32,000 bases of DNA from Alkalilimnicola ehrlichii MLHE-1 (GTDB lineage: Bacteria; Pseudomonadota; Gammaproteobacteria; Nitrococcales; Halorhodospiraceae): assembly GCF_000014785.1 (NCBI RefSeq), contig NC_008340.1:720001-752000 (forward strand). The letters run 5' to 3'. Positions 4,461 to 23,172 of the stretch are shown here, one piece after another. Position numbers and translations under genes: made by a program. Under the pieces are notes generated by a model, which saw only the letters and a program-made list of their open reading frames with translations, was not told the origin of the DNA and did not search any database. Numbering within the stretch: position 1 is the stretch's first letter; every line of letters starts with the position of its first letter.

Positions 4461-4498
4461 CGGCCATGCCCGGACCCGAGCTGTTCGTTTGCCTTCAC

Positions 4499-5623
4499 CT
4501 AGGCCTTGCTCAAAGCCTCTTTCAGCGCCTCCACCACCCGCACCTGGGTGGCCCGGTCGATGGCCGGCCACATGGGCAGGCTGATCACCTCGCGCGCGGC
4601 GCGCTCGGCCTCGGGCAGACTCACGGTGTAGCCCTTCTCCCGGTAAACCGGTTGGGTGTGCAGCGGCGCGGAGTAGTAACTGTTGGCGCCGACCCCCTGA
4701 TCGTTCATGTACTGGCGGATGGCGTCGCGCCGGTCCGAAGGCACCCGCAGGGTGTACTGGTGAAAGACGTGGTCACCGTGGGGCGCGACCACCGGCGGCG
4801 TTACCTCCGGAAGGGGCGCCAGCAGGTCGTCGTAACGGGCGGCCGCGGCCTGACGGCCGGCGTTCCAGTCGTCCAGGTGGGGCAGCTTGACCCGCAACAG
4901 GGCCGCCTGCAGGGCGTCCAGCCGGGAGTTGTAGCCGATGGCGGTGTGGTGATCGCGGCGGCTGGAGCCGTGCACCCGCAGCAGCCGGCAGCGCTCGGCC
5001 AGCGCCGCGTCGTTGGTGGTGATCATGCCCGCATCGCCGGCGGCACCCAGGTTCTTGGTGGGGTAGAAACTGTGGGCGGCAATGTCGCCCAGGCTGCCCA
5101 AGCGCCGCTCCCCCTGGCGCGCGCCGAAGGCCTGGGCCACATCTTCCAGTACCTTCAGCCCGTGTTTTTCTGCCAGGGCGTTGATGGCCGCCATGTCCGG
5201 CCCCTGACCGTACAGATGCACGGGGATGATGGCCCGGGTGCGCTCGGTGATCGCCGCCGCGATGGTCTCGGCGGTGATATTGAAGGTGGTGGGGTCGATC
5301 TCGGCAAAGACCGGTTTGGCCCCCACCAGGTCCACCGACTCGCTGCTGGCAAAGAAGGTGAAGGGCGAGGTGATCACCTCGTCGCCCGGCCCGATGCCCA
5401 GCGCCGCCAGGGCGATGATCAGCGCATCGGTGCCGCTGTTGCAGCCGATGGCGTGCTCGACGCCGAGGAACTCGGTCACCTCCGCTTCCAGCCCCTGCAC
5501 TTCCGGACCCAGTACGTAGCCGCCTGAGGCCAGCACGCGCAGGGCGGTCGCCTCGAGCTGCTCGCGAAGCTGGTCATACTGCGGGCGTGGGTTGTAGATG
5601 GGGATGAAGGGCTGGTCGGTCAT
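4499..5623 (-). CDS. DegT/DnrJ/EryC1/StrS-family PLP-dependent sugar aminotransferase
   Basis: 374 aa. N-terminal PIYNPRPQYDQLREQLEATALRVLASGGYVLGPEVQGLEAEVTEFLGVEHAIGCNSGTDALIIAL and the later SFYPTKNLGAAGDAGMITTND (PLP-lysine region) are typical of this family. Confidence 0.9.
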   Translation of the reverse strand: MTDQPFIPIYNPRPQYDQLREQLEATALRVLASGGYVLGPEVQGLEAEVTEFLGVEHAIGCNSGTDALIIALAALGIGPGDEVITSPFTFFASSESVDLVGAKPVFAEIDPTTFNITAETIAAAITERTRAIIPVHLYGQGPDMAAINALAEKHGLKVLEDVAQAFGARQGERRLGSLGDIAAHSFYPTKNLGAAGDAGMITTNDAALAERCRLLRVHGSSRRDHHTAIGYNSRLDALQAALLRVKLPHLDDWNAGRQAAAARYDDLLAPLPEVTPPVVAPHGDHVFHQYTLRVPSDRRDAIRQYMNDQGVGANSYYSAPLHTQPVYREKGYTVSLPEAERAAREVISLPMWPAIDRATQVRVVEALKEALSKA

Positions 5624-6955: not shown

Positions 6956-9900
6956 TCAGGCCCCATGATGCAGTGGGGGTGGAGCCGCCATCAGTTGGCC
7001 GGCGCGCTCCGCATCCAGCGGGCGGCTGTAGTAAAAGCCTTGGATTTCGTCGCAGCCCAGCGCCTGTAATACCCGTAACTCGGCCGCGGTCTCCACCCCT
7101 TCGGCGATGACCCCAAGGCCAAGGCTGCGGGCGATGCTGATGATGGCCTGGTTGATCGCTGTGTCGTGGCCGCTGTCGCCTATGCCGCGGACGAAGGATT
7201 GGTCAATCTTCAGCTTGGCGATGGGCAATCGCTTGAGATAGCCGAGGTTGGAATAACCGGTCCCGAAATCGTCAATGGCCAGACTGATGCCCATTTCCCG
7301 AAGGGTCTGGAAACCGGTGACCACCGCCGGGTCGTCCTCACTCAAAAAGAGGCTTTCGGTGACCTCCAAGTGGAGCCCGTCACCAGGCAGGCCGCTGGTC
7401 TCCAGTGCCCGGCGCACGTCTGCGACCACGTCGCTGCGACGGAGCTGGACCACCGATAGATTCACCGAGACCGGTAGGGCGGGAAGCCCGGCCTGCCGCC
7501 AGGCGCGGTTCTGGCGGCAGGCCTCGCCGAGCACCCAGCGGCCCAGTGGGACGATCAGCCCCGTCTCCTCGGCGATGGGGATGAAGCGCGCCGGTGAGAT
7601 GTCGCCCTCGTCCCCGGCGTGCCAACGCAGCAGGGCCTCCATTCCGGTGAGGGTGCCGTCGGCCAGGCTTACCTGCGGCTGGTAATGTAGGCGGAATTCA
7701 CCCCGGTCCAGTGCGCGGCGCAGCCGGCTCTCCAGCGACAGGCGCTCGCGGGCGCGGCTGGTCATGTCGCTGCTGAAAAAGCGGTAGCCCTCATGGCCAC
7801 TGGCCTGTTTGGCCATCGACATGGCCGCATCCGCGTGACTGTGCAGGGTCTCGAGGTTATCCCCGTCTTCGGGGTAGAGTGCGATGCCCACGACGCTGGA
7901 GGGGGTCAGCTCCTGTCCGCTCAGGTCCAGTGGCTCGGCGACGCAGGCCATCAGGCGTTCGGCGGCTTGGGCCGCCTCGGTGGGCTTGTGGATCTCCGGC
8001 AGCAGGATCAGAAACTGATCGCTGCCGATCCGGGAGACCGTGCCCGCCCCGTTCACGTGGTCTTGCAGGCGCTGCGCCACCGTTTGCAGCACCTCGTCAC
8101 CGGCCACATGACCAAGGGTTTCGTTGATGATCTTGAAACGGTCGAGGTCCAGCGACAGCAGGGCCAGCCGGTAGTGCTGGTCCTGGGCGCGGCGCAACGC
8201 CTGTCCCAATCGGTCGGCGAGCAACCCGCGATTGGGCAGCCCGGTGACCGGATCGTGCTGGGCCAGGTAGCGGATGTGCGCCTCGCGATCCTTGGTCTCG
8301 GTAAGGTCAAGGCCTACCGCGATATAGTGGGTGATCCGCCCTGCCTCGTCCCGGACCACCGATAGGGTGAGCCAAAGGGGCGCGTTTTCGCCCCCCTTGC
8401 GCCGGTTCCAGATCTCGCCTTCCCAAAAGCCGTGGCGGCGGAGCCGGGCGAGTATACGGCGGTAGAACTGTTGCGTGTGGTGGGGGGAGCGGAGCATGTG
8501 CGGGCGCCGGCCGAGCACCTCGTCGGGGACATAGCCGGTGCGTTCAGTGAAGGCCCGGTTCACCCGCATTATCCGCTGTCTGGCATCGGTGATGATGATG
8601 GCCTCGGTGCTGTGCTCGAACACCTCCTCGGCCAGGCGCATCTGCTCTTCGGCCGCCTTGCGGGCCTGTTCCCGCTCTATGTTGTCCAGCGCGAACGAGA
8701 GGTCCCCGGTCATCTCCGCCATGAGCTGGATGATATCCGCGCTAAAAAAGCGCTCCTCGCTGGAGTAGACGGCCAATGCGCCGATGCAGTCGTCGCTCTG
8801 GAACAGGGGGAAGGCGGCGACCGAGCGAAACCCGCGGCGGGCCGCGGCGGCCTGCCAGGGGCCGGCGTCCGGGTGATCCAGGAACCGGTCGAACACGCTG
8901 GCCCGCCGCTGGCGGATGGCGCGTCCTACCGGGCCCCGGCTCTCCGGGCGCGCAGGATCGGTACTGATACGGATCTCGTCCAGATAACCCATGTCGCGAC
9001 CGGCCCGGCTCACCGGGGTGACGCGGCCACTGGCCTGATCCACCAACCCGATCCAGGCCATGTCGAGTCGGCCATACCGGACCACCACCTCGCAGGTCCG
9101 CTGGAACAATTCCTTGGGGTCGTCGATACGGATGATGACCTGATTGGCCTGGCTGAGGGCAGCGTAGAGATCGCGCAGTCGGCTGATCTCCTCGCGGGCC
9201 TGGACGTGGCCGGTCACGTCGTGGCTGATACAGAGCACATGGGCGATATTGCCGGTGTCATCGGTCTCCGGGACGATCAGCGCCTCGAAGTGGCGGACCC
9301 GGCCCTCGCGGTCCGGATGGGAAAAGGTCATGGTCCCGGGTTCGCCGCTTTCCAGCGCCTGGTTCAGGTGCCGCTCCCAGGTCGCGAGCAGTTTGCCGCG
9401 GAAGCCGACCTCCTCGTGTGTTCGGCCCAGGTAGTGCTCCCGCGGGATGCCGGTGAACGCCTCCAGGGCACGGTTGACGTAGAGATGCCGGAGGTCGCGG
9501 TCGAGTCGGACGATGATGTCGGGTGAGTTTTCCGCCAGGGTCTCGTAGGCCCGCTCTCGCGCGGCGAGGTCGGCCTGCGCCATCAACTCGGTGCGTAGCC
9601 GTCGGGCCTCCAGACCGTGCACATGGCCCCGCCACCAGAGGATGATGCCCGTGCCCGCTGCGACCACCAGCAGCAGACCGGTGGTGAAGCTCCAGCGCGC
9701 CAGGTGCCGGATATCCGCTTCCGGCGGGGGCGTGGGGGTACTGGAGACCTGGTGGTAGAAGAGGTAACCGAGCGCCGCCAATCCGCCGGCGAGCCCGGTC
9801 AGGATGCCCACGGGCACCCAGTAGTCGCCGGCAACGGGGAGCAGGTCGGAATCAGGGGCGCGAGGGCGCCGGGCCTGCTCTTCCAGCCGGGTGGTGTTGA

Positions 9901-10111
9901 TGGTAAAGCGGATCACTAGGTAGAGCAGCCCGGCGGTCACCAGCACGTAGAACCAGCCCTTGGCGGTTTGCAGCCGGGCCACCAGCTCGGTGTCCTCTAT
10001 GAGCACCAGCAACAGGCGGTCTGAGCCGAAAATCCACAGCAGCCCGAGCGCCGCGTAGGCCAGGCAGATGGTCAGGGCGGGGCCGTGGCCCGGTTTGCGC
10101 AAGGCTGGCAT
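6956..10111 (-). CDS. Membrane-anchored PAS-GAF-PAS-GGDEF(degenerate)-EAL c-di-GMP signalling protein, probably a phosphodiesterase
   Basis: 1051 aa. It has N-terminal TM helices and PAS segments (e.g. ENSPDIIVRLDRDLRHLYVNRA, FEHSTEAIIITDARQRIMRVNRAF). The GAF-like middle contains RLDMAWIGLVDQASG...ALAVYSSEE. The GGDEF domain carries RIGSDQF instead of RxGGDEF (8012-8026). The EAL domain is intact: EALLRW (EAL codons 7631-7639), DDFGTGYS, EGVET and QGFYYSRP. Confidence 0.9.
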   Translation of the reverse strand: MPALRKPGHGPALTICLAYAALGLLWIFGSDRLLLVLIEDTELVARLQTAKGWFYVLVTAGLLYLVIRFTINTTRLEEQARRPRAPDSDLLPVAGDYWVPVGILTGLAGGLAALGYLFYHQVSSTPTPPPEADIRHLARWSFTTGLLLVVAAGTGIILWWRGHVHGLEARRLRTELMAQADLAARERAYETLAENSPDIIVRLDRDLRHLYVNRALEAFTGIPREHYLGRTHEEVGFRGKLLATWERHLNQALESGEPGTMTFSHPDREGRVRHFEALIVPETDDTGNIAHVLCISHDVTGHVQAREEISRLRDLYAALSQANQVIIRIDDPKELFQRTCEVVVRYGRLDMAWIGLVDQASGRVTPVSRAGRDMGYLDEIRISTDPARPESRGPVGRAIRQRRASVFDRFLDHPDAGPWQAAAARRGFRSVAAFPLFQSDDCIGALAVYSSEERFFSADIIQLMAEMTGDLSFALDNIEREQARKAAEEQMRLAEEVFEHSTEAIIITDARQRIMRVNRAFTERTGYVPDEVLGRRPHMLRSPHHTQQFYRRILARLRRHGFWEGEIWNRRKGGENAPLWLTLSVVRDEAGRITHYIAVGLDLTETKDREAHIRYLAQHDPVTGLPNRGLLADRLGQALRRAQDQHYRLALLSLDLDRFKIINETLGHVAGDEVLQTVAQRLQDHVNGAGTVSRIGSDQFLILLPEIHKPTEAAQAAERLMACVAEPLDLSGQELTPSSVVGIALYPEDGDNLETLHSHADAAMSMAKQASGHEGYRFFSSDMTSRARERLSLESRLRRALDRGEFRLHYQPQVSLADGTLTGMEALLRWHAGDEGDISPARFIPIAEETGLIVPLGRWVLGEACRQNRAWRQAGLPALPVSVNLSVVQLRRSDVVADVRRALETSGLPGDGLHLEVTESLFLSEDDPAVVTGFQTLREMGISLAIDDFGTGYSNLGYLKRLPIAKLKIDQSFVRGIGDSGHDTAINQAIISIARSLGLGVIAEGVETAAELRVLQALGCDEIQGFYYSRPLDAERAGQLMAAPPPLHHGA

Positions 10112-10122: not shown

Positions 10123-12868
<2,746 letters not shown>

Positions 12869-12885
<17 letters not shown>

Positions 12886-13096
12886 CCTGGCCGTCCTGGC
12901 GTGAACCGGCGCGTGGGCGGCGGTATAAGACCAGCCCGGTCAGCAGGATGATCAGCAGCCAGCTGAGGAAGAGGTAGACATAGAGGACGGGCAGGCCGAA
13001 CACCCAGCCGTCGCGGGCGAACAGGGATAGCAGGGGGTAGTTGAACAACAGCGCCGCAAGCAGGGCCAGGGCGACGATGCGCTCGGTACGTTGCAT
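12869..13096 (-). CDS. Small two-TM membrane protein (75 aa) translationally overlapped with the SLC5-kinase gene; CbrX-like by position
   Basis: The track ORF 12869..13198 would overlap the upstream gene. The internal ATG at 13096 lies 13 nt past that gene's stop and gives MQRTERIVALALLAALLFNYPLLSLFARDGWVFGLPVLYVYLFLSWLLIILLTGLVLYRRPRAG. Its 3' end overlaps the kinase start. A second module with the same arrangement is at 27455..27652. Confidence 0.6.
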
Positions 13097-13109: not shown

Positions 13110-15269
13110 CTAACGGAATCGGGCCTGCTCTCTGCGGACCGTGACCACCTGCTCTGAGGCCTGGATTGCCTGGCCCAAAGTGACCACACCCCGTTCACGC
13201 AGAAGGGGAATCATTCGGGCGAAGACATCGGCGGTGACCCGCGCGTCGGCCAGTGCGCTGTGGCGCTTCTGGACTTCGACCCCCAGCCTCTCTGCCACGC
13301 CCTCCAGCGTGTGGTCGGGGGAATGGTCGTGCAAATACACCGACAATAGTAGCGTATCGAGCACCGGCTGGGGGAACGCCAGCCCGGCCCGGGCCTGTGC
13401 CCGGCGCAGAAACCCCATATCGAAGGCGGCATTGTGGGCCACCAGTACGCTCTCCTCGCCGATGAAGCGCGAGAAGGCCCGCAGAACCGGTCCGATCTCC
13501 GGCGCCCGTGCCACATCCTCGTTGCTGATGCCGTGGAAGCGGGTGGCGCTGTCCGGTATCGCCCGGCACGGTTTCACCAGTTGCTCGAAATACTCGTCCT
13601 GCAGCACCCGTCCGTTGACCAGACGCACGGCACCGATGGCGATGATCTCGTCGCCGCGCGCCGGCGACAGGCCGGTGGTCTCGGTATCGAAGACCACGCA
13701 ACTGAGCTGATCCAGCGCTCGCTCGGCCCACTCGCCCAACTGCGGCGGTTGCTGCGCCACGGAAAAGTCGTAAAACTCGTGCTGCACGGCGGGTGCGTGG
13801 CTGGGCGATTGCCATTGGCGCTCCGAGGCCGGTAGGGGGATGCGCAGAAAGGCGCACCCCGGGTCGCGTTCGCTGTGCTGGCTCCAGGCGACCGTGTGGT
13901 GCCGCTCCAGGAGGGTCCGCGCGGAGAGCTCGCCCCCCAGGTCCGGGAGGGGGGCGTCCAGCCATCGATCCAGGGTCTCGCTGGCGACCGGCCTGCCGCG
14001 CCAGGTGAGGTCGAGATAGACGCGTTGATCGCCCATCAGGGCCTCCACGGTCACCCGGTCCACCCCGTGCTCCCCGGCCAGGCGGGCGAGCAGATCCTCC
14101 AGTACCAGCCCAATCGCATGGCCCTCCGCGTGGACCCACAGCGGCAGCCCGACCTCGTCCACCCGGGGCAGGGCGCGCTGGCTGCGGCGCAATACACTGC
14201 CGAGCAGGTCAGCGGTGTAGAGATCGGCCATCACCCAGGGGGTGGAGACGAAGCGCTGCGCCTCGGCGGCCAGTTGCTCGAAGCGTGTCCCGAGGGCGCT
14301 GGTCTCCCGGGCCACTAAGGCCTCGAAGGCCTGGCGCTGTTCCGGGGTCATGTCCGCCCGCCGGTCCAGGCTGTCGGTGGCGGCCCGAAGGCTGGCCAGC
14401 GGTGCCCGCAAGGCCTCCATGGTCTGGCGTAGTCGTTGCTCCCGTTCGGCCATGCCCCGGAGCTCGCGGGTGATGTCGTCGAAGGTGAGCACAAAGGCGG
14501 ACTGTAACAGGCTGGAGGCGGGCAGAAGAGCGAGTTGGCAGTGGAGCAGGCTGCCCTGATCCTGGGTGGCGCAGACGAACTCCGTGCTGGCCTCGGTGAC
14601 CGCCTCGTCGGGCTCGGCCTTGCCTTCGCCCTCGTCGCGCTGGTGGCGCAGCAGCTCGAGGCTGTGCTCCAGCGGCGCCCGGGCGAGAATACCGTAAAGC
14701 GACCGGCACAGGCCCAGCGCCGGGTGGTCGCCGAGGATGGCGCGGGCGGCCGGATTGTAGAGCATGATGCGACCCTGCTCGTCGCAGACCACCACCCCCT
14801 GGCGCAGCCCGCGCAGGACGATCTCCAGCCGCGCCTTCTGGGCCTCCAGGCCGCGCGGGTCGCCGGTGATGGCCTTGGCCACCTCCTGCCGGCACTCGTA
14901 AAGTGCCCGTCCCAGGGTCTCGACCCGCTCGGGGAGTTCGCCCAGAAGGTGCGGGCCGGGCAGCTCGATCCGGTGGCTGGGGTTGCCGTGGCGCATGATG
15001 GCGGCGCCCCGGCTGACCGCCGCCGCGGCGGTGGCCAGGCGCTGGTCCAGCACCAGCCAGAGCAGGGCCAGCAGGCCGCCGAAGCCGAGCCCAAAGCCGC
15101 CCAATGCCAGGATGGCACGGCCCTGCTGGAGCTCGTCGGGCAGTTGCGGCACCAGGTAGCGGCCCAGCGCCAGCAGCGTAAGGACCAGCACCCCAACGGG
15201 CACCAGCAACAGGAGCCAAAACCGGGTGCGGGGCTCCAGTGCACGCGGCGGGCGGTGTGGTGCGGACAC
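13110..15269 (-). CDS. Membrane sensor: 2 TM - HAMP-like - PAS-like - degenerate HisKA/HATPase (pseudokinase) - C-terminal DEDDh 3'-5' exonuclease (DnaQ/RNase T fold)
   Basis: 719 aa with a GTG start. TM helices are FWLLLLVPVGVLVLTLLAL and LALGGFGLGFGGLLALLWLVL. The H-box-like RLRQTMEALRAPLASLRAA has Glu (14415-14417) where the neighbouring kinase has its phospho-His. The CA-like region lacks the N-box Asn and has G1 WRGRPV and G2 GGELSA. The exonuclease domain (about 13110-13712) has ExoI VVFDTETTG, ExoII LVAHNAAFDMGFL and ExoIII HSALADARVTADVF. Confidence 0.85.
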   Translation of the reverse strand: MSAPHRPPRALEPRTRFWLLLLVPVGVLVLTLLALGRYLVPQLPDELQQGRAILALGGFGLGFGGLLALLWLVLDQRLATAAAAVSRGAAIMRHGNPSHRIELPGPHLLGELPERVETLGRALYECRQEVAKAITGDPRGLEAQKARLEIVLRGLRQGVVVCDEQGRIMLYNPAARAILGDHPALGLCRSLYGILARAPLEHSLELLRHQRDEGEGKAEPDEAVTEASTEFVCATQDQGSLLHCQLALLPASSLLQSAFVLTFDDITRELRGMAEREQRLRQTMEALRAPLASLRAATDSLDRRADMTPEQRQAFEALVARETSALGTRFEQLAAEAQRFVSTPWVMADLYTADLLGSVLRRSQRALPRVDEVGLPLWVHAEGHAIGLVLEDLLARLAGEHGVDRVTVEALMGDQRVYLDLTWRGRPVASETLDRWLDAPLPDLGGELSARTLLERHHTVAWSQHSERDPGCAFLRIPLPASERQWQSPSHAPAVQHEFYDFSVAQQPPQLGEWAERALDQLSCVVFDTETTGLSPARGDEIIAIGAVRLVNGRVLQDEYFEQLVKPCRAIPDSATRFHGISNEDVARAPEIGPVLRAFSRFIGEESVLVAHNAAFDMGFLRRAQARAGLAFPQPVLDTLLLSVYLHDHSPDHTLEGVAERLGVEVQKRHSALADARVTADVFARMIPLLRERGVVTLGQAIQASEQVVTVRREQARFR

Positions 15270-15290: not shown

Positions 15291-15662
15291 TCAGTCCGCG
15301 CCCAGGAGCTCTCGCACCTTGTCGATGACCTCCTGGGTGGAAAAAGGCTTGGTGATGTAGTCGTCGGCGCCCAGGGAAAGCCCCTTCTCGCGCTCCACGT
15401 CGCGCCCTTTGGCCGTCAACATCACGACCAGAATGTCCTTCCAGTCATCGCTGGCCCGGATGGTCTCGCAGACCTCGTAGCCGTTCTTGCGCGGCATCAT
15501 GACGTCCAGCAGGACCAGATCGGGCTTCGCCCGCTCGATTGCCTCCAGCGCCTCGTCACCGTCGGTCGCGGTCTCTACCTCGTAGCCCGCCTGTTTCATC
15601 AGGAATTCCAGCGACAGGACGATGTTGGCCTCATCGTCGACGATGAGTATGCGTTTCGGCAT
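15291..15662 (-). CDS. Stand-alone CheY-like receiver (REC) protein
   Basis: Track ORF 15291..15740. I prefer the ATG at 15662, preceded by GGAGGAG, giving MPKRILIVDDEANIV. Acidic pocket DDE, phospho-Asp in LVLLDVMMP, MLTAK and ITKPF are all intact. 123 aa with no output domain. Confidence 0.9.
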   Translation of the reverse strand: MPKRILIVDDEANIVLSLEFLMKQAGYEVETATDGDEALEAIERAKPDLVLLDVMMPRKNGYEVCETIRASDDWKDILVVMLTAKGRDVEREKGLSLGADDYITKPFSTQEVIDKVRELLGAD

Positions 15663-15812: not shown

Positions 15813-17690
15813 TCAGGCCCCGAACCGGGCGTGCATGTTCTCCTGGAAGCGTTTGATGACCCGCATGGCCAGGGTGAGGCTCTGGCGCGCCAGGGGATGG
15901 AGATCGTCCGGCGCCACCAGTTTGTCCAGTGGCTCCCCGGCCTCGCACTGGGCCAGTTGGTGGGAGAGCAGCAGGTCGAGCAGGTCCTCGTGGGCGGCGA
16001 TGATCGACTCGGCCGCATCAGCGCTGAGCACGCCCTGCCGCACCAGCGCGTGTACCCGCCCGCACGTGTTGGTCTCCTGAATCCCGGCTGCTACCGCATG
16101 GACCCGGGCGCAGTTGGCGATGATGCGCAGGCCCTGGCGTTTGATGTCGATCTTGCCGCGGTTGGCGCCTCGATCCGGGGTCACCAGGCGGTTGAACAGC
16201 CCCAGCGGCGGTCGACCCTCGGCATCGTCCATGGCCAGGGCCCGCAGCGCCCTCGGGTGGGTTGGCAGGGTGTCGAGGACGTGGCGCCAGAGGCTGTCCA
16301 CCAGCCGGTCCTCGCCGTAGAGCAGCTCGAAGTCGAGCACGATGTTGCTCCAACGGGCCGCCTTGCTCCCGGGGTACTGGGCGGCACGGGTAAAGCTGGT
16401 CTGCCATTCCTCAAGGGTCTTCTGGTAAGCGGGGTTACGCGCCATGATCTCGCCCGGGCAGATGGCGTAGCCCACCTCGCCCAGGTTGACATTCACCCGG
16501 TCGCAGAAGGTCTCGAACCACTGTTTCTCCGCCGCCGACAGTGGCCCCGGCTCGTCATCGATGATGATGCCGTTGTCCTGGTCGGGCTCGAACAGCATCT
16601 CCCGGCGCCCCCCGGAGCCCATGATGATGAGCGCATAGGGGCGTGGCGCCGTGCCGTGGCCCTCGCGCTGGATCTCCTCCAGGGTCAGGTCAATGCAGCG
16701 CCTTTGCAGGGCGAGGTGGAACTCGCTGATCACCCAGGCTGCCTGGCTGGCGTCGCGATGGCTTTCGAAGGCGTCGCGCACCACTTTGCCGGTGTTGCGG
16801 TAGAGGCGCTGGAGCTGTTTCAGGTTGCCGGCGTTGTAGGCCAGCTCCAGGGCGGTGCTCTCCTGCATCAGCAGGGCGCGGAGGATGTTGGTCTGTGACA
16901 GCATGCCGGCGGGTTTGCCCTCGTCCATCACCACCAGGTATTTCTGGCGCAGTTCCGACTGCAGGGCCTCGGCCTTCCACAGGGGGGTGTCCGGGCTGAT
17001 GGGGATGGTCGGCCGGGTGATGCTGCTGATCGGTGCGGACGGCGGGTAGCCGGTGCCCAGCACCGCGTGCGCCAGGTCCGGCGCCGTGACCAATCCGAGC
17101 AGGTTGCCGTCCGGGGCCATGACCCCCATCGAGCCGATGCAGCGGGCCTGCATCTCGCCGTGTACCGACATCAGGGTGTCGGTGCTGCGGCAGGTGGCCA
17201 GGGGGCTGTTCATCGCCGTCCGCACCGGGCGTGCCAGCGCACCGGTGGGGGCCTGATTGGCGTAGCTGCGGGCGCGGATGCGCTGGGTGATGACCTGCTC
17301 GAGGGCATCGTGCAGGCCGGGGTGCGCCTCCTCCAGCGCCCGCACGCGCTGAAAGGGGACCACGGCGAGCTGCGCGGGCCGGGTGACCACGGCGGTTGCG
17401 CTGTAGGGTTGATTGTCCAGGTAACTGGAGATGCCCAGCAGGCAGATGGCCTCGCGCAGCGCGGTCTCGCCGTTGGGGTAGACCAGGTCGGCGGCCCCCT
17501 CGAGCAGCACGAACAGCGCGCCGGGGTCGGCTTCGCCCAGCCGGAACAGGGTGTCGCCGGGTTCGGCGTGGCGGATCTCGGCATCCTGGATGAGGGTACT
17601 CAGCGCCGCCGGGTCCATGTGGTGCAGGGGGCGGCTCTTGGCCAACTCGGTGATATCGGGCGGTGCCTGCCCGCCGGCGTCTTCGGCCAT
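15813..17690 (-). CDS. cNMP-binding - CBS pair - DUF294 nucleotidyltransferase - DUF294_C signalling protein
   Basis: 625 aa with RBS GGGGAGAA. The N-terminal cyclic-nucleotide-binding-like barrel contains IRHAEPGDTLFRLGEADPGALFVLLEGAADLV. Two CBS repeats follow. The pol-beta-type NTase motif is YALIIMGSGGRREMLFEPDQDNGIIID, and the C-terminus is a helical substrate-binding-like region. Confidence 0.85.
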   Translation of the reverse strand: MAEDAGGQAPPDITELAKSRPLHHMDPAALSTLIQDAEIRHAEPGDTLFRLGEADPGALFVLLEGAADLVYPNGETALREAICLLGISSYLDNQPYSATAVVTRPAQLAVVPFQRVRALEEAHPGLHDALEQVITQRIRARSYANQAPTGALARPVRTAMNSPLATCRSTDTLMSVHGEMQARCIGSMGVMAPDGNLLGLVTAPDLAHAVLGTGYPPSAPISSITRPTIPISPDTPLWKAEALQSELRQKYLVVMDEGKPAGMLSQTNILRALLMQESTALELAYNAGNLKQLQRLYRNTGKVVRDAFESHRDASQAAWVISEFHLALQRRCIDLTLEEIQREGHGTAPRPYALIIMGSGGRREMLFEPDQDNGIIIDDEPGPLSAAEKQWFETFCDRVNVNLGEVGYAICPGEIMARNPAYQKTLEEWQTSFTRAAQYPGSKAARWSNIVLDFELLYGEDRLVDSLWRHVLDTLPTHPRALRALAMDDAEGRPPLGLFNRLVTPDRGANRGKIDIKRQGLRIIANCARVHAVAAGIQETNTCGRVHALVRQGVLSADAAESIIAAHEDLLDLLLSHQLAQCEAGEPLDKLVAPDDLHPLARQSLTLAMRVIKRFQENMHARFGA

Positions 17691-18073: not shown

Positions 18074-20179
18074 ATGGAAGCCAAGGCGGTATGGCTGTTC
18101 ATCTTTGTGGCCATCTACTGGGGCTACTGCGTGTTCTGGGGGGTGCGGGGCGCCATGGAGGCGCGGACCGCCACCGACTACTTCGTGGCCGGCCGCAGTG
18201 TCTCCATGTGGGTGTTTATCCTGGCCGCCACCGCCACCTCCTTCTCCGGCTGGACCTTTATTGGCCACCCGGGGCTGATCTACCAGGATGGCCTGCAGTA
18301 CGCCTACGCCTCCTTCTACGCCATCACCATTCCGTTCACCGGGCTGCTGTTCCTGAAGCGCCAGTGGATGATCGGCAAGCGCTGGGGCTTCGTCACCCCG
18401 GGGGAGATGTTTGCCACCTACTACCGCTCCGATACCCTGCGCATCCTCATCGTGCTGGTGGCGCTGATCTTCGCCGTGCCCTATCTCGGGGTGCAGTTGC
18501 GGGCCTCGGGCTTTCTGTTCAACGTGCTCACCGACGGCATGCTGGGGGTGGAGGTGGGCATGTGGTTGCTGTCCGCCATCATCGTCTTCTATGTGGCCTC
18601 CGGGGGGCTGCGGGCAGTGGCCTACGTGGATGCGCTGCAGGCGATATTGCTGGCGGCCGGCATCGTCATCGTGGGTGGGGTCGCGGTCTACTTCATGGGC
18701 AGCTGGGGGGTGTTCGTGGAGGGCATCGCGCGGCTGGCGGAGCAGTCCGTGGCCAGCGGCGAGTACGTTACCCCCGCCGGACTGAGCGGCTATGTCGCCG
18801 TGCCGGGTGTGATCCAGTTCGTCAGTGACGGGCCCTCGGCCACCGGCGGCGCCTGGACCGGGCTGATGATCCTGACCTACATGTTCGCCCTGATGGGCAT
18901 TCAGTCCAGTCCGGCCTTCAGCATGTGGGCCTTCTCCAACGCCAACCCGCGCCCCTTTGCCCCGCAGCAGGTCTGGGCCTCGGCGGTGGGTATCGGCCTC
19001 ATCCTGTTCACCTTCACCGCCATCCAGGGCATGGGTGGCCATCTGCTGGGTGCCAACCTGGGCTTCACCGCCGACAACCCTGACCTGTTCGACAGCCGTG
19101 ATCGGGTGGTGTTGCAGCGCGGACTGATCGCCACCGCTGAGCCGGCGCTCTCCCGCGACGAGGTGGAGGCCCGGATCGAGTCCGGATTGGCGGCGCTCGC
19201 CGCCGCGGGGCCGGACGAGACGGTGGACCTGGCGGGCGACCACGGGTGGGTGGACCTGGAGGCCCACGGCGGCGGCGACCCGGCGCTGGTGCCCCAGATG
19301 ATCAGCCTGCTGGAGGTGGGGGCCCCCTGGCTGGTAGGCCTGCTGGCGGTCTGTGCCCTGGCCGCCATGCAGTCCACCGGCGCTGCTTATATGTCTACCT
19401 CGGGGGGCATGATCACCCGCGATATTCTGCGCCGGTACCTGATACCGGAGGCGGATCATGCCACCCAGAAACTCTGGGGGCGGGTGTTCGTGCTGCTGAT
19501 TGTCGCCGCCGCCTTGGTCACCGCCACCGTCGCCACCGATGCCCTGGTGTTGCTGGGCGGCTTGGCTGTGGCCTACGGCTTCCAGATGTGGCCGGCGCTG
19601 ATCGGCTTGTGCTTTTGGCCCTGGCTTACTCGCCAGGGGGTGGTCGCCGGCCTGATCGTTGGGCTGGTGGTGGTCACGCTGACAGAGAACATCGGTGTGC
19701 AGTTGCTGGCCGCCCTCGGCCTGGAGTGGTGGGGCCGGTGGCCCTGGACGCTGCACTCGGCGGGATGGGGCATTCTGTTCAATATCACCACCGCGATCCT
19801 GGTCTCCGCCATCACCCAGGATCGCGGTGAATTGGAACACCGGATGGTCTATCACCACTTCCTGCAGGAGCATGCTGGTCTGCCGGTGGCCAAGCGCCAT
19901 CTGATCCCGGTGGCCTGGATCCTCACCATTGGCTGGTTCTTCTTCGCTGTGGGACCGGGCACGGTCATCGGCAACACCCTGTTCGGCTACCCCCAGTCCT
20001 TCCTCTTCGGGCTCCCTTCCATCTGGGTTTGGCAGCTCCTTTTCTGGGCCGCCGGGTGTCTGCTGCTCTACTTCCTGGCCTACCGCATGGAACTGAGCAC
20101 CGTGCCACGCAAAGAGGTGGAGGTGCTGGCCGAGGATGAGCCCGGGGACATTCGTCTCGACATCCACCGCCCGTCGTAG
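18074..20179 (+). CDS. Sodium:solute symporter (SSS/SLC5) family transporter; substrate unknown, monocarboxylate/acetate plausible from context
   Basis: 701 aa, polytopic. The N-terminal block DYFVAGRSVSMWVFILAATATSFSGWTFIGHPGLIY and the block VASGGLRAVAYVDALQAILL are typical SSS motifs. There is no DUF485/YjcH-type small gene upstream. Confidence 0.85.
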   Translation: MEAKAVWLFIFVAIYWGYCVFWGVRGAMEARTATDYFVAGRSVSMWVFILAATATSFSGWTFIGHPGLIYQDGLQYAYASFYAITIPFTGLLFLKRQWMIGKRWGFVTPGEMFATYYRSDTLRILIVLVALIFAVPYLGVQLRASGFLFNVLTDGMLGVEVGMWLLSAIIVFYVASGGLRAVAYVDALQAILLAAGIVIVGGVAVYFMGSWGVFVEGIARLAEQSVASGEYVTPAGLSGYVAVPGVIQFVSDGPSATGGAWTGLMILTYMFALMGIQSSPAFSMWAFSNANPRPFAPQQVWASAVGIGLILFTFTAIQGMGGHLLGANLGFTADNPDLFDSRDRVVLQRGLIATAEPALSRDEVEARIESGLAALAAAGPDETVDLAGDHGWVDLEAHGGGDPALVPQMISLLEVGAPWLVGLLAVCALAAMQSTGAAYMSTSGGMITRDILRRYLIPEADHATQKLWGRVFVLLIVAAALVTATVATDALVLLGGLAVAYGFQMWPALIGLCFWPWLTRQGVVAGLIVGLVVVTLTENIGVQLLAALGLEWWGRWPWTLHSAGWGILFNITTAILVSAITQDRGELEHRMVYHHFLQEHAGLPVAKRHLIPVAWILTIGWFFFAVGPGTVIGNTLFGYPQSFLFGLPSIWVWQLLFWAAGCLLLYFLAYRMELSTVPRKEVEVLAEDEPGDIRLDIHRPS

Positions 20180-20895: not shown

Positions 20896-22833
20896 TTACT
20901 TGTTGGGACGATCCTCGATCAGATTGTCCACGACCGTCGGATCGGCCAGGGTGCTGGTGTCGCCCAGGCTGTCCAGCTCGTTGGCGGCGACCTTGCGCAG
21001 GATGCGGCGCATGATCTTGCCGGAGCGGGTCTTGGGCAGGCCCGGGGCCCACTGGATGACATCGGGCTTGGCGATGGGCCCGATCTCGTTGGAGACCAGC
21101 TTCACCAACTCCTTCTTCAGCTCATCGCTGGGCTCCACACCGGCCATTAGAGTGACGTAGGCGTAGATGCCCTGGCCCTTGATGTCGTGCGGGTAGCCCA
21201 CCACCGCGGCTTCGGCGACGGCATCGTGCAGCACCAGGGCACTCTCCACCTCGGCGGTGCCCATACGGTGGCCGGAGACGTTGATCACGTCATCGACGCG
21301 GCCGGTGATCCAATAGTAACCGTCCTCGTCCCGACGGGCCCCGTCACCGGTGAAGTACATCCCCGGGTAGGCCGCCAGGTAGGTCTCCATGAAGCGCTTG
21401 TGGTCGCCATAGACCGTACGCATCATGCTCGGCCAGGCCCGCTTGATCACCAGGTTGCCGCTGGCGGCACCTTCCAGCTCCTTGCCTTCGGGGTCCACCA
21501 GGGCCGGCTCCACGCCGAAGAAGGGCAGGGTGGCGGAACCCGGCTTCAGGTCGGTCGCGCCCGGCAGCGGGGCGATCAGGATGGAGCCGGTCTCAGTCTG
21601 CCACCAGGTGTCCACGATCGGGCAGCGGCCGTCGCCCACCACGTTGTAGTACCACTCCCAGGCCTCCGGGTTGATGGGCTCACCCACCGTGCCCAGGATG
21701 CGCAGGCTCTTGCGGCTGGTCTTGGTGACGTGCTCGTTGCCCTGGCCCATCAGGGCGCGGATGGCGGTCGGGGCGGTGTAGAAGATGGAGACGTTGTGCT
21801 TGTCGACCACTTCCCAGCAGCGGGCGGCGCTGGGGTAGGTGGGCACACCCTCGAACATCAGGGTGGTGGCGCCGTTGGCCAGCGGACCATAGACGATGTA
21901 GCTGTGACCGGTAACCCAGCCCACGTCGGCGGTGCACCAGTAGACCTCGCCCTCCTGGTAGTCGAAGACGTACTTGTGGGTCATGGCTGCGCCCAGCAGG
22001 TAGCCGGCGGAGCAGTGCTGCACGCCCTTGGGCTTGCCGGTGGAGCCGGAGGTGTAGAGGATGAACAGCGGGTCCTCGGCGTCCAGTTCCTCAGCGGGGC
22101 AGTCGGCAGAGACATCGGCCACGGCCTCGTGGTACCAGATGTCACGCCCTTCCTTCCAGTCGATGTCGCCCCCGGTGCGCTTGACCACGAAGACGTTCTT
22201 GACGTCGGGGCAGCTCTCAAGGGCCTTGTCGGCGTTGGACTTCAGGGCCACGTTGCGGCCACCACGGACGCCCTCGTCGGCGGTGATGACGGTCTCGCAG
22301 TCGGCGTTCTGGATGCGGTCCTTCAGGGCGTCCGGGGAGAAGCCGCCGAAGACGATGGAGTGGATGGCGCCGATGCGGGCGCAGGCCAGCATGGCCACGG
22401 CCGCCTCGGGGATCATCGGCAGATAGATGCAGACGCGGTCACCCTTCTTGACGCCGCGGGCCTTCATGGCGTTAGCCAGGCGGCAGACGCGCTCGTGCAG
22501 GTCCTTGTAGGTGATGTGCTCGGAGTTGTTGGGGTCGTCACCTTCCCAGATGATGGCGGTCTGATCGCCCCGCTGCTCCAGGTGGCGGTCCAGGCAGTTG
22601 TGGGCGACGTTGAGCTTACCGCCCTCGAAGAAGCGGATCTCGCCGTTCTTCAGGTCGGAGTGGTAGACCTTGTCCCACTTGCTGAACCAGTCGAGGAATT
22701 TCTCAGCCTGTTCGCCCCAAAACCCCTCCGGGTCATCCAGGGACCGGCGATACATCTCCTCATAGGTGTCCTTGGTGATGTGCGCCTTCTCGCGGATATA
22801 GTCGGGTACGGGGTAGACCTTCGTGTCGGACAT
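20896..22833 (-). CDS. acs: Acetyl-CoA synthetase (AMP-forming)
   Basis: 645 aa with RBS GGAGGAG. Full-length hallmark motifs are present: [60 protein letters not shown] and [15 protein letters not shown]. Confidence 0.97.
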
Positions 22834-22941
22834 ACTGGATCTCCTCCCAGTTTTGAATTATCGCCTATGACCCGGGTGCGGGCCGAAAAACACCGGCATA
22901 CAGCCTGATTTGGTGATTCTGAACACGCGCTGCGCAACCCC

Positions 22942-22953
22942 GGGGATATCCCC
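22942..22953. promoter_or_regulatory. Perfect 12-bp palindrome GGGGATATCCCC about 110-120 nt upstream of the acs start
   Basis: Read directly from the sequence. It is a candidate operator only; no known consensus is assigned. Confidence 0.2.
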
Positions 22954-23075
22954 TTCTTGTTTGGGTTTGACCCATTTTCCGGGCCCCCGGGCCAATGGAC
23001 CAACCGGGCTATTCCGGGGGGTCGAGCAGCGCGCAGCCCCTCGTGGGCTTGGCTCTCCCTGTCGATTAAAGCGGG

Positions 23076-23096
23076 CGCTGCGGCCCGCACGCAGCG
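23076..23096 (-). terminator. Hairpin CGCTGCG-gcccgca-CGCAGCG 3' of the NtrC-family regulator gene, overlapping the inverted repeat AGCGTTA-tgg-TAACGCT (23093-23109)
   Basis: It lies 77 nt past the stop at 23173. On the minus strand it is followed by CCCGCTTTAATCG, a weak U-tract. Confidence 0.35.
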
Positions 23097-23172
23097 TTAT
23101 GGTAACGCTTTCCACGCCATCTTTCGAAATCGCCATTAGTGAACCGTCCGCCAACCCTACCATTGTAAAACA

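What the first reader, a model, noticed from the sequence alone, without database searches (positions are those of the whole stretch)
13110..15269. Membrane sensor in which a dead histidine-kinase core (His to Glu) is fused to an intact DEDDh exonuclease
The domain order, read by eye, is 2 TM, HAMP-like, PAS-like, DHp-like, CA-like, then exonuclease. The DHp-like helix aligns position for position with the H-box of the genuine kinase encoded just downstream: FVSMVSHELRTPLTSIRAF versus RLRQTMEALRAPLASLRAA. The phospho-acceptor His is replaced by Glu (14415-14417), a potential phosphomimic. The CA-like region has lost the ATP-binding motifs: there is no N-box Asn, DNGPGI has become WRGRPV, and GSGLGL has become GGELSA. 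By contrast, all catalytic DEDDh residues of the C-terminal RNase T/DnaQ-type domain (13110-13712) are present: DTE, NAAFD and H-x4-D. A transmembrane signal input coupled to a nuclease output through a retained but non-catalytic kinase scaffold is not an architecture I know to be characterised. In the genomes I remember, the equivalent exonucleases next to acs/actP loci are short soluble proteins.
Basis: partly seen in the sequence, partly recalled or inferred. Interest (0 to 1): 0.8.

Follow-up and report, generated by a model that had tools for sequence, protein, structure and literature searches.

The report
Dead sensor kinase fused to exonuclease
This gene encodes a membrane-anchored protein in which a complete but catalytically dead histidine-kinase module is fused to an intact 3'-5' exonuclease, and in at least 80 bacterial species it sits in a fixed four-gene cassette with a stand-alone receiver protein and a real transporter-type kinase, which suggests a two-component system whose output is a nuclease rather than a transcription factor.

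Summary
The ORF at 13110-15269 (-) of Alkalilimnicola ehrlichii MLHE-1 encodes 719 aa in the order TM hairpin, HAMP, PAS, DHp-like, CA-like, DEDDh exonuclease.

- **Kinase homology.** Pfam finds only the PAS and RNase_T domains. A 47-member family profile matches the VicK kinase end to end (E 7e-17), and the top Foldseek hits of two AlphaFold models are histidine kinases.
- **Dead kinase.** Across 127 homologues the phospho-acceptor position is never His; it is Glu or Asp in 75 of 80 species loci. The N-box Asn, the G1 Asp (an invariant Trp instead), most of G2 and the phosphatase motif are also gone.
- **Live exonuclease.** The DEDDh residues are invariant.
- **New context.** The family is large: 188 clusters at 50% identity with E<=1e-30, and 214 species genomes. 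It lies in a conserved cassette of single-domain REC, this protein, a small TM protein and an SLC5-type (CbrA-like) kinase. REC is directly upstream in 72 of 76 loci and the kinase downstream in 59 of 62. DUF294 nucleotidyltransferase, an SSS transporter and acs are often nearby.
- **Best model (inferred).** The kinase phosphorylates REC, REC docks on the dead DHp as DivK does on DivL, and this gates the exonuclease.

The substrate is unknown. I found no publication describing this architecture.

The parts
13110..15269 (-). Whole gene: pseudo-histidine-kinase-exonuclease fusion, 719 aa, GTG start 21 nt after the REC stop codon.
   Evidence: The NCBI start (697 aa) corresponds to residue 23 and would cut TM1. 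The conserved R14 and W18 argue for the longer ORF.
15045..15233 (-). TM hairpin, residues 13-75, with a periplasmic turn of about 3 residues.
   Evidence: AF2 helices 13-42 and 46-94. This is the least conserved region, with mean pairwise identity 0.31.
14868..15044 (-). HAMP-like linker, residues 76-134.
   Evidence: The family profile hits HtrII and Tsr TM2-HAMP, and the VicK alignment starts at profile position 70. Pfam HAMP is only weak, in 4 of 47 members.
14472..14837 (-). PAS domain, residues 145-266, with three conserved Cys: C162, C233 and C244.
   Evidence: PAS_4, PAS and PAS_8 hit 46-47 of 47 members. Cys conservation is 116-123 of 127.
14247..14471 (-). Dead DHp-like helical hairpin, residues 267-341. 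It carries an H-box-like motif, E-x-LRxPLA(S/N)LRAAAE.
14415..14417 (-). Codon for E285, at the position of the phospho-acceptor His.
   Evidence: The profile alignment to the neighbouring kinase puts its H692 opposite the family's consensus Glu, which is E285 here. The position is never His in 127 homologues and is acidic in 75 of 80 species loci.
13824..14237 (-). Dead CA-like (Bergerat-fold) domain, residues 345-482. It has no N-box Asn, W423 replaces the G1 Asp, and the lid is shortened.
   Evidence: Mostly pLDDT >90; HK matches; column counts.
13734..13823 (-). Flexible linker, residues 483-512, carrying the conserved (R)PEFYDF motif. The window protein reads QHEFYDF.
   Evidence: pLDDT <50 over residues 488-500. 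The motif is conserved in long, TM-anchored and PAS-only relatives.
13110..13733 (-). DEDDh 3'-5' exonuclease domain of the PolC/epsilon type, with D528, E530, D617, H670 and D675.
   Evidence: RNase_T E 4e-40; 2p1j E 9e-46 with the profile; rmsd 1.6-2.1 A to PolC and epsilon; catalytic residues invariant.
15291..15662 (-). Stand-alone receiver (REC) protein, about 123 aa, with intact DD, D, T, Y and K residues.
   Evidence: Response_reg E 9e-31; sequence. A REC gene lies directly upstream in 72 of 76 loci that have room for it.
12869..13096 (-). Small 2-TM protein of 75 aa. Its 3' end overlaps the kinase start by 17 nt.
   Evidence: Present in 68 of 80 loci; sequences; no Pfam hit. The overlap with the kinase start recurs in L003, L006 and L087.
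10123..12885 (-). Genuine SLC5-type transporter-histidine kinase of 920 aa, with an intact H-box and HATPase_c.
   Evidence: HisKA E 1e-20 and HATPase_c E 1e-28. The N-terminus matches PDB 10ed_A at E 7e-76 and the core matches HK853 at E 4e-41. Found downstream in 59 of 62 loci with room.
15813..17690 (-). cNMP-binding / CBS / DUF294 nucleotidyltransferase, upstream of the REC gene and on the same strand.
   Evidence: A DUF294 gene lies within 7 kb in 24 of 80 loci. It is also linked in L001, L087, L089 and L090.
18074..20179 (+). Divergently transcribed sodium:solute symporter of 701 aa.
   Evidence: SSF E 6e-31. The same divergent arrangement appears in Halorhodospira and other Ectothiorhodospiraceae.

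Best explanation
**Shown.** The protein is a membrane-anchored pseudo-histidine kinase (TM hairpin, HAMP, PAS, dead DHp, dead CA) fused through a flexible linker to a catalytically intact DEDDh 3'-5' exonuclease. It belongs to a large, conserved family. In about 95% of surveyed species loci that have room on the contig, it is encoded between a stand-alone receiver protein and a small TM protein plus an SLC5-type (CbrA-like) histidine kinase.

**Inferred.**
- The SLC5-type kinase reports solute availability, probably a monocarboxylate such as acetate or pyruvate given the acs, SSS-transporter and DUF294 neighbours. It does so by phosphorylating the stand-alone REC.
- REC, in one of its two phosphorylation states, docks on the retained response-regulator-binding face of the dead DHp helix. 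The acidic residue that replaces His would face the REC active site.
- The resulting change in the dimeric DHp/CA scaffold, integrated with input from the Cys-bearing PAS domain, switches the tethered exonuclease on or off.

The output of this two-component system would therefore be nucleolytic: trimming or degrading an RNA, oligonucleotide or nucleotidyl adduct, possibly one made by the DUF294 nucleotidyltransferase. It would not be transcriptional. The substrate is not known.
For: **Architecture and dead kinase.**

**Intact nuclease.**

**The dead domains are under selection.** Mean pairwise identity is 0.45 for DHp* and 0.49 for CA*, against 0.48-0.53 for HAMP and PAS and 0.31 for the TM hairpin. 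The H-box-like stretch LRxPLAxLRAAAE is, with the PAS RILLYNPAA stretch, among the best-conserved N-terminal motifs despite the lost His.

**Cassette.**
- The exonuclease is fused in 80 of 80 loci.
- REC lies directly upstream in 72 of 76 loci with room. The median distance from the REC stop to the first candidate start of the ORF is 6 nt.
- The SLC5 kinase lies downstream in 59 of 62 loci with room.
- The cassette spans Ectothiorhodospiraceae, Competibacteraceae, Oceanospirillales and other lineages.
- None of the gene-called loci has a DNA-binding regulator inside the cassette, so REC needs a protein target.
- REC has all the phospho-switch residues.

**Independent link between the same players.** In Pseudomonas the SLC5 kinase system MxtR/ErdR (CrbS/R) most strongly controls transcription of the exonuclease/DUF294 pair PP_0353/PP_0354 (PMC9927547; bioRxiv 10.64898/2026.09.07.749794).

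**Precedent.** The pseudokinase DivL reads the phosphorylation state of the single-domain regulator DivK through its kinase core (PMC4211667).
Against: - No experiment or computation here shows that REC binds the dead DHp.
- A mirror-tree test did not single out DHp*. All correlations were r 0.87-0.92, and the best partial correlation of REC was with the DHp of the genuine kinase.
- Four 'type B' loci (L001, L018, L022, L023) keep the whole pseudo-kinase core and the acidic residue but show no REC, and in L001, L022 and L023 no kinase either. The core therefore has a role that does not need an adjacent REC.
- The acidic residue is not universal: the Marinospirillum-like clade has Pro.
- Conservation of the R and P of the H-box could be purely structural.
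- The exonuclease substrate is entirely unknown.
Confidence: 0.5

Rival explanations
1. Scaffold-only model. The dead DHp/CA core is just the dimerisation and signal-transmission module that couples the protein's own HAMP/PAS input (for example redox or a cofactor sensed through the three conserved Cys) to the exonuclease. REC is the ordinary cognate regulator of the SLC5 kinase and acts on another target or as a phosphate sink. The genes are merely co-expressed.
For: Type B loci lack REC, and three of the four also lack the kinase, yet keep the full core and the acidic residue. The PAS domain is among the best-conserved sensor parts (identity 0.53) and has a conserved Cys triad. REC co-varies best with the DHp of the genuine kinase.
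Against: It does not explain why REC sits directly upstream of this gene in 72 of 76 loci, separated from its presumed kinase by two genes. It also does not explain why none of the gene-called cassettes holds another REC target, or why the response-regulator-facing H-box flank is so well conserved without a His.
Confidence: 0.25
2. Kinase-regulator model. The pseudo-kinase modulates the SLC5 kinase itself, either by DHp heteromerisation as RetS does with GacS, or as DivL acts on CckA, possibly through the membrane with the small TM protein. The exonuclease would be constitutively active or simply tethered to the membrane complex.
For: The DHp of the pseudo-kinase resembles that of the partner kinase in both helices (35.5 bits; LRxPLxS(L/I)RA and EQRxxF...(K/R)E(S/T)xxL). 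All three proteins are membrane proteins encoded together. RetS and DivL cores appear among the structural and sequence relatives of both proteins.
Against: Three type B loci have no partner kinase. An invariant DEDDh site covalently fused in 80 of 80 loci argues that the nuclease is the regulated output, not a passenger. No direct evidence for heteromers exists.
Confidence: 0.15
3. It is still an enzyme of phosphotransfer: a kinase using another residue, or a dedicated REC~P phosphatase.
For: The kinase fold is complete. H457 is near-invariant. A minor clade has a His five residues after the canonical position.
Against: The N-box Asn is absent, the G1 Asp is replaced by an invariant Trp, G2 is degenerate and the lid is shortened. 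HATPase_c is not among the Pfam hits reported. H457 aligns with the ordinary CA-helix His, not with an acceptor. The HisKA phosphatase motif (E/D at H+1, T/N at H+4) is absent: position 289 is A/G/R/S/Q.
Confidence: 0.04
4. It is an annotation or assembly artefact, or a decaying gene fusion without function.
For: Some metagenomic relatives are split or truncated: L088, and the overlapping 437-aa and 277-aa ORFs in L090.
Against: The fusion is intact in 80 of 80 species loci and in complete genomes. All domains are conserved and AF2 confidence is high.
Confidence: 0.01

Closest known systems
DivL-DivK of Caulobacter (a pseudo-histidine kinase that reads a single-domain response regulator)
   Same: Both are membrane-associated kinase-like proteins with PAS domains and a complete DHp/CA core whose acceptor His is replaced. 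Both function together with a stand-alone REC protein and a genuine kinase, with information flowing from REC into the kinase-like core (PMC4211667). The DivL core (4q20) is among the fold matches.
   Different: DivL has Tyr, not Glu or Asp, at the His site. It has no fused enzyme and acts on another kinase (CckA). It is alphaproteobacterial and is not the closest relative by sequence; the best matches are WalK/VicK-type kinases. REC binding is proven for DivL and only inferred here.
PP_0353 / PP_0354 of Pseudomonas putida (RNase_T-type exonuclease plus cNMP-CBS-DUF294 protein, targets of the SLC5 kinase system MxtR/ErdR = CrbS/CrbR)
   Same: The same trio of players is involved: a DEDDh exonuclease next to a cNMP/CBS/DUF294 nucleotidyltransferase, near actP/acs-type genes, and functionally tied to an SLC5-type sensor kinase (PMC9927547; bioRxiv 10.64898/2026.09.07.749794).
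   Different: In Pseudomonas the exonuclease is a separate, shorter protein (short and soluble from my own knowledge) controlled transcriptionally through a DNA-binding regulator. Here it carries about 510 extra N-terminal residues (TM, HAMP, PAS, dead kinase) and sits in one cassette with REC and the kinase. Direct orthology to PP_0353 was not tested. The function of PP_0353 is itself unknown; its deletion impairs growth on pyruvate.
WalK / VicK-type class I histidine kinases (TM-HAMP-PAS-DHp-CA)
   Same: The domain order is the same, with homology across the HAMP, PAS, DHp and CA regions: VicK 4i5s E 7e-17 in one stretch, and a WalK model as the top Foldseek hit.
   Different: All catalytic motifs are lost, there is no extracytoplasmic domain, and a C-terminal exonuclease is added.
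Other non-catalytic kinase-like modules: NifL, RetS, and the plant phytochrome kinase-related domain
   Same: These are kinase-fold modules kept as protein-interaction or transmission scaffolds. NifL (9qq6) and phytochrome A appear among the fold and profile matches.
   Different: None is fused to a nuclease. NifL still binds nucleotide in its GHKL domain, and RetS keeps its His (both from general knowledge).

Membership tests
Class I histidine kinase (HisKA + HATPase_c) | DHp helical hairpin followed by a Bergerat-fold CA domain, homologous to known kinases | tested here: met
   Profile vs PDB: VicK E 7e-17; 4u7n, 5c93, ThkA. 35.5 bits to the neighbouring kinase. Foldseek top hits are all kinases.
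Class I histidine kinase (HisKA + HATPase_c) | Phospho-acceptor His in the H-box | tested here: not met
   E285 in the window protein. The position is E/D/P/Q/A/R/K and never His in 47 + 80 homologues.
Class I histidine kinase (HisKA + HATPase_c) | N-box Asn that binds Mg-ATP | tested here: not met
   The aligned positions are 392 (H/F/Y) and 396 (R/Q/H); no Asn occurs at either.
Class I histidine kinase (HisKA + HATPase_c) | G1 box (DxGxG) and G2 box (GxGxG) with an ATP lid | tested here: not met
   W423 replaces the Asp in 127 of 127 sequences. G2 keeps only G446. The lid is about 12 residues shorter than in the neighbouring kinase.
Class I histidine kinase (HisKA + HATPase_c) | Pfam HisKA and HATPase_c above their gathering scores | tested here: not met
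   HisKA scores E 0.15 (12.6 bits against a cut-off of 26.9) and is sub-threshold in 28 of 47 members. HATPase_c is not among the hits reported.
Class I histidine kinase (HisKA + HATPase_c) | HisKA phosphatase motif (E/D at H+1, T/N at H+4) | tested here: not met
   Position 286 is A/D/S/G and position 289 is A/G/R/S/Q, with T in only 1 of 47.
Class I histidine kinase (HisKA + HATPase_c) | ATP binding and autophosphorylation | not testable with these tools
   Needs biochemistry.
DEDDh exonuclease (DnaQ / RNase T superfamily, PF00929) | Pfam RNase_T above its gathering score, and the DnaQ fold | tested here: met
   138 bits against a cut-off of 24. 2p1j E 9e-46. rmsd 1.6-2.1 A to PolC and epsilon.
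DEDDh exonuclease (DnaQ / RNase T superfamily, PF00929) | ExoI D-x-E, ExoII D, ExoIII H-x4-D | tested here: met
   D528, E530, D617, H670 and D675 are invariant in 47 members and in all complete sequences of the 80 loci.
DEDDh exonuclease (DnaQ / RNase T superfamily, PF00929) | 3'-5' exonuclease activity and substrate class | not testable with these tools
   Needs nuclease assays.
DivL-type pseudo-histidine kinase (works like) | Kinase fold without the acceptor His, plus a stand-alone REC partner and a genuine kinase in the same pathway | tested here: met
   Dead core. REC upstream in 72 of 76 loci and kinase downstream in 59 of 62.
DivL-type pseudo-histidine kinase (works like) | Phosphorylation-dependent binding of REC to the DHp/CA core | not testable with these tools
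   No complex prediction was available. The mirror-tree test was uninformative.
DivL-type pseudo-histidine kinase (membership by descent) | Tyr at the His site, a multi-PAS N-terminus, a CckA partner, and DivL as closest relative | tested here: not met
   The site is Glu or Asp, not Tyr. There is a single PAS domain. The best relatives are VicK/WalK; DivL ranks only 48-50 in Foldseek.
DUF294-linked exonuclease pair (PP_0353/PP_0354 type) | Exonuclease gene next to a cNMP/CBS/DUF294 nucleotidyltransferase gene and SSS/acs genes | tested here: met
   Window: DUF294 at 15813-17690, SSS at 18074-20179, acs at 20896-22833. DUF294 lies within 7 kb in 24 of 80 loci. Also L001, L087, L089 and L090.
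DUF294-linked exonuclease pair (PP_0353/PP_0354 type) | Short soluble single-domain exonuclease | tested here: not met
   The protein is 719 aa with two TM helices and about 510 extra residues.
DUF294-linked exonuclease pair (PP_0353/PP_0354 type) | Orthology of the exonuclease domain with PP_0353 | not tested
   The PP_0353 sequence was not retrieved. The nearest NCBIfam model, PRK07740, scores 153 bits, below its cut-off of 261.
SLC5/STAC transporter-histidine kinases (the partner gene, 10123-12885) | SLC5-like N-terminal transporter domain fused to an intact HisKA/HATPase_c core | tested here: met
   N-terminus 9-472 matches PDB 10ed_A at E 7e-76. HisKA and HATPase_c are above cut-off. The H-box reads SHELRTPL.

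The most novel reading that the evidence does not exclude
This would be a previously unrecognised type of two-component signalling. A transporter-type histidine kinase phosphorylates a stand-alone receiver. The receiver is read by a dead kinase module (reverse signalling as in DivL), which directly gates a fused 3'-5' exonuclease. The pathway's output is then destruction or trimming of an RNA, oligonucleotide signal or nucleotidyl mark, possibly one written by the co-occurring DUF294 nucleotidyltransferase, giving a writer/eraser pair that controls acetate or pyruvate metabolism. The same logic would explain the enigmatic exonuclease/DUF294 genes of the CrbS/MxtR regulon in Pseudomonas and Vibrio.
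Probability: 0.3. Interest if true: 0.9.

Novelty: new variant of a known kind. Interest (0 to 1): 0.72.

Why it matters
Two-component systems are the main bacterial signalling device. Their known outputs are mostly transcription factors, cyclic-di-GMP enzymes, or CheY/CheB-type proteins (general knowledge). A conserved, widespread module in which the terminal effector is a DEDDh exonuclease, wired through a dead kinase, would matter in three ways.

- It would add a new output class to two-component signalling.
- It would be a second, independent example of a pseudo-histidine kinase used as a receiver-reading device, outside Alphaproteobacteria.
- It would give a concrete, testable handle on an open question: what the exonuclease/DUF294 pair does. 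That pair is the most strongly CrbS/MxtR-dependent operon in Pseudomonas, yet it has no known function.

The family also shows that standard domain annotation misses a 215-residue kinase core completely; it is named only 'exonuclease domain-containing' or 'PAS domain-containing' protein.

Tried and rejected
- **Single-sequence Pfam and NCBIfam scans.** They see only the RNase_T and weak PAS domains and would wrongly suggest there is no kinase core. They were superseded by the profile and fold searches.
- **Short-form relatives.** I tried to show that genuinely short exonucleases of the same subfamily exist among the top hits of the exonuclease domain. Most are fragments on short contigs. P0068 proved to be a broken long form at a contig end, so I could not establish the short-form link from these data. 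P0143 and P0167 (TM-anchored, about 300 aa) and P0140 (PAS-only) look like real alternative N-termini.
- **The search for related loci with the 11-sequence alignment A3.** It failed for lack of a conserved stretch. It was repeated with the 5-sequence alignment A4.
- **Mirror-tree and partial-correlation test of REC against each domain.** It was dominated by phylogeny and could not discriminate DHp* from the other domains.
- **Type A versus type B comparison of the H-box flank.** With only four type B sequences, the differences (R295 to S in three) are too few to interpret.
- **Anti-phage defence reading.** PADLOC gives only generic DEDDh, REC and cNMP domain hits with no system-level match, so I rejected it.
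- **Literature searches for the architecture.** Nothing was found. Most 'DUF294' hits were DUF2946 and similar.
- **Promoter and terminator scan.** Counts were not above chance. The two promoter-like sites do lie upstream of the DUF294 and REC genes, and no terminator-like site falls between the REC gene and the kinase gene.

Full report
**1. What is in the sequence**

The window comes from Alkalilimnicola ehrlichii MLHE-1. The ORF at 13110-15269 (-) is 100% identical to a protein annotated there only as 'exonuclease domain-containing protein'. The ORF is 719 aa from a GTG start located 21 nt after the stop of the upstream receiver gene. The database start corresponds to residue 23. That start would remove a conserved Arg/Trp motif and part of the first TM helix, so the longer ORF is the better reading.

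Single-sequence domain scans see a strong RNase_T domain (residues 525-683, E 4e-40) and weak PAS hits. HisKA scores only E 0.15, and there is no HATPase_c hit.

**2. The kinase core is real but dead**

I collected 59 homologues of the N-terminal 499 residues. All are roughly 660-730 aa except one 343-aa fragment, and all carry a C-terminal RNase_T domain. I aligned 47 of them (A1).

- **Profile evidence.** The family profile matches the VicK kinase (4i5s_A) at E 7e-17 in a single stretch covering HAMP, PAS, DHp and CA. It also matches WalK-type, ThkA and NifL chains, and the TM2-HAMP regions of HtrII and Tsr.
- **Neighbouring kinase.** An N-terminal sub-profile aligns to the genuine kinase encoded downstream at 35.5 bits. 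That alignment puts the kinase's H692 opposite the family's consensus Glu (E285 in the window protein) and its two N-box Asn opposite consensus His and Arg, which are D392 and R396 in the window protein.
- **Fold evidence.** The full-length AlphaFold2 model has mean pLDDT 83.9, and the CA-like domain is mostly above 90. A second model covers residues 77-509. Both give histidine kinases as top Foldseek hits: WalK, VicK, YF1, ThkA and HK853. The hits also include known non-catalytic kinase-like modules (plant phytochrome A, NifL, DivL). The C-terminal domain superposes on PolC and epsilon at 1.6-2.1 A.

Column counts show the following.

| Feature | Finding |
|---|---|
| Acceptor position (285) | E28 D7 P6 Q2 A1 R1 K1 in 47 diverse members; E67 D8 Q4 A1 in 80 species loci; never His |
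| N-box Asn positions | 392 is H/F/Y; 396 is R/Q/H |
| G1 Asp | invariant Trp (W423, 127/127) |
| G2 box | only one Gly (G446) kept; lid about 12 residues shorter than in the neighbouring kinase |
| HisKA phosphatase motif | T/N at H+4 absent |
| DEDDh residues | D528, E530, D617, H670 and D675 invariant |

The dead domains are not decaying. Their mean pairwise identity (0.45-0.49) equals that of HAMP and PAS and exceeds that of the TM hairpin. The H-box flank LRxPLA(S/N)LRAAAE is one of the best-conserved N-terminal motifs.

The only correction concerns the membrane part. The two TM helices are joined by a turn of a few residues, so there is no extracytoplasmic sensor domain.

**3. Size of the family**

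An exhaustive search with residues 1-509 finds 188 representatives (50% identity clusters) at E<=1e-30 and 598 at E<=1e-10. Most of the top 150 are 690-730 aa with the first 500 residues matched. A scan of one genome per species finds relatives in 214 species.

**4. Genomic context (new relative to the finding)**

On the window's minus strand the gene order is:

1. cNMP-CBS-DUF294 nucleotidyltransferase (15813-17690)
2. single-domain REC (15291-15662)
3. the fusion gene
4. a 75-aa two-TM protein (12869-13096), overlapping the next gene by 17 nt
5. a 920-aa SLC5-type transporter-kinase (10123-12885)
6. a PAS-GAF-GGDEF-EAL protein (6956-10111)

An SSS transporter (18074-20179) is transcribed divergently. 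Beyond it lie acs, a sigma-54 response regulator and a second SLC5-type kinase paralogue.

I built HMMs for each neighbour and scanned 80 species loci.

| Feature | Count |
|---|---|
| Exonuclease fused to the pseudo-kinase | 80 of 80 |
| REC gene directly upstream | 72 of 76 loci with room |
| SLC5 kinase downstream | 59 of 62 loci with room |
| Small TM ORF between them | 68 of 80 |
| DUF294 gene within 7 kb | 24 of 80 |

The cassette is also found in gene-called contigs from Halorhodospira, Competibacteraceae, Marinospirillum and Marinobacterium.

A minority 'type B' arrangement has SSS, one or two DUF294 genes and the fusion gene, with no REC; three of the four loci also show no kinase. 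It occurs in Thioalkalivibrio and Aquisalimonas, and as a second paralogue in MLHE-1 itself.

One metagenomic locus (L090) has every player co-directional: acs, small protein, kinase, REC, pseudo-kinase and exonuclease, two DUF294 genes, DUF485 and SSS.

**5. Link to the literature**

In Pseudomonas putida, the RNase_T-type exonuclease PP_0353 and the cNMP-CBS-DUF294 protein PP_0354 form an operon. It is a direct target of the SLC5-kinase system MxtR/ErdR (CrbS/CrbR) and is among the genes most strongly dependent on it. Their function is unknown; PP_0353 is needed for normal growth on pyruvate (PMC9927547; bioRxiv 10.64898/2026.09.07.749794; PMC5715377 for the P. fluorescens DUF294 homologue Pflu5625).

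So the same three players are connected in two different ways. In Pseudomonas the connection is transcriptional. In this family it is by gene fusion and cassette membership. I found no paper describing the fusion architecture.

**6. Mechanism**

*Shown:* the architecture, the loss of every kinase and phosphatase motif, the intact nuclease site, purifying selection on the dead core, and the cassette.

*Inferred:* REC is the cognate regulator of the SLC5 kinase, because it is the only receiver in the cassette, has intact switch residues, and co-varies best with the kinase DHp. None of the gene-called cassettes contains a DNA-binding output, so REC needs a protein target. The obvious candidate is the protein encoded immediately downstream, which retains a response-regulator-docking type of domain. 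The precedent is DivL, a pseudo-kinase that reads DivK~P through its kinase core (PMC4211667). REC docking, together with the protein's own HAMP/PAS input, would change the DHp/CA scaffold and gate the exonuclease, which is tethered by a flexible linker carrying the conserved RPEFYDF motif.

The acidic residue at the His site would face the REC active site and could help discriminate REC from REC~P. This is speculation. Type B proteins keep the acidic residue without an adjacent REC, and one clade has Pro there.

The substrate is unknown. The domain is closest to PolC/epsilon-type proofreading exonucleases. The recurrent DUF294 (GlnD/GlnE-like) partner suggests a nucleotide-adding and nucleotide-removing pair, but nothing here tests that.

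**7. Rivals**

- **Scaffold-only model (0.25).** The core serves only PAS/HAMP signalling.
- **Kinase-regulator model (0.15).** The pseudo-kinase controls the SLC5 kinase, in the manner of RetS/GacS or DivL/CckA.
- **Residual kinase or phosphatase activity (0.04).**
- **Artefact (0.01).**

Type B loci are the main argument for the first rival. The near-universal REC adjacency is the main argument against it.

**8. Verdict**

It turns out to be a large, conserved, unannotated family within a fixed signalling cassette.

It is best filed as a new variant of a known kind: a pseudo-histidine kinase used as a signalling scaffold, here fused to a nuclease output. It fails every catalytic membership test for histidine kinases and passes all sequence and fold tests for DEDDh exonucleases.

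Interest is 0.72. The proposed signalling route is plausible and directly testable, but it remains inferred from genomic context, sequence and fold.

Noticed in passing
window 15204-15269 (-): The database protein (P0001, 697 aa) starts at residue 23 of the ORF. That start would truncate TM1 and drop the conserved R14/W18 motif. The GTG at 15269, 21 nt after the REC stop, fits the homologue alignment better.
   Followed up: yes
window 14472-14837 (-), residues C162, C233, C244: Three cysteines in the PAS domain (VVCD, FVCA, LHCR) are conserved in 116-123 of 127 homologues. This hints at redox, metal or cofactor sensing. No coordinates were available to check how close they are in space.
   Followed up: partly
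window 12869-13096 (-) and 12869-12885: A 75-aa two-TM ORF with a conserved NYP motif has no Pfam hit. It overlaps the start of the SLC5 kinase by 17 nt, and the same overlap (4-11 nt) occurs in L003, L006 and L087. This resembles the translationally coupled cbrX-cbrA pair described for Pseudomonas (PMC6591292 abstract).
   Followed up: partly
window 20896-27465 (-): A second SLC5-type kinase paralogue of 975 aa carries an extra PAS domain and is 33% identical to the cassette kinase over the transporter part. It is followed by a sigma-54 response regulator and acs, a CbrA/CbrB-like pair next to acs. Halorhodospira (L003) likewise has a PAS-HisKA-HATPase kinase, a sigma-54 regulator and acs in this order.
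   Followed up: partly
L001 (A. ehrlichii paralogue P0011, 729 aa): The same genome holds a second copy of the fusion gene (50% identical) with no REC or kinase nearby. It is preceded by two DUF294 genes (603 and 375 aa), and an IS (DDE transposase) is inserted between the SSS transporter and the first DUF294. htpG lies convergently next to it, and htpG is also adjacent to the cluster in Marinobacterium (L087).
   Followed up: partly
A1 alignment, Marinospirillum/Marinobacterium clade (P0054-P0059; L006, L087): In this divergent clade the His position is Pro, and a His appears five residues later in place of the H-box Pro (LRGHAANL). The CA-like domain is equally degenerate there, so kinase activity is still unlikely.
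   Followed up: partly
L090 3724-5834; L088 3-1046: In two metagenomic contigs the fusion gene is split. L090 has overlapping ORFs of 437 and 277 aa. L088 has 93-aa and 240-aa ORFs at a 2x-coverage contig end. These are probably frameshifts or assembly errors, but a naturally split form is not excluded.
   Followed up: no
A2 alignment: P0143, P0167, P0140; L089: The same exonuclease subfamily, carrying the RPEFYDF motif, also occurs with other N-termini: a TM-anchored form of about 300 aa (near a CBS-DUF294 gene and an SSS transporter in L089) and a PAS-only form. The sensor part is therefore modular.
   Followed up: partly
window 6956-10111 (-): A 1051-aa PAS-GAF-PAS-GGDEF-EAL protein starts 11 nt after the kinase stop, so c-di-GMP turnover may be co-expressed with the cassette in this species. 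Halorhodospira has an alpha/beta hydrolase in that position instead.
   Followed up: no
window 4079-5527 (+), 29857-31365 (-), 3001-5000: Two long ORFs (482 and 502 aa) have no Pfam hit at E<=1e-5. The first lies in the most GC-rich stretch of the window (0.72-0.73). I did not examine whether they are real genes.
   Followed up: no
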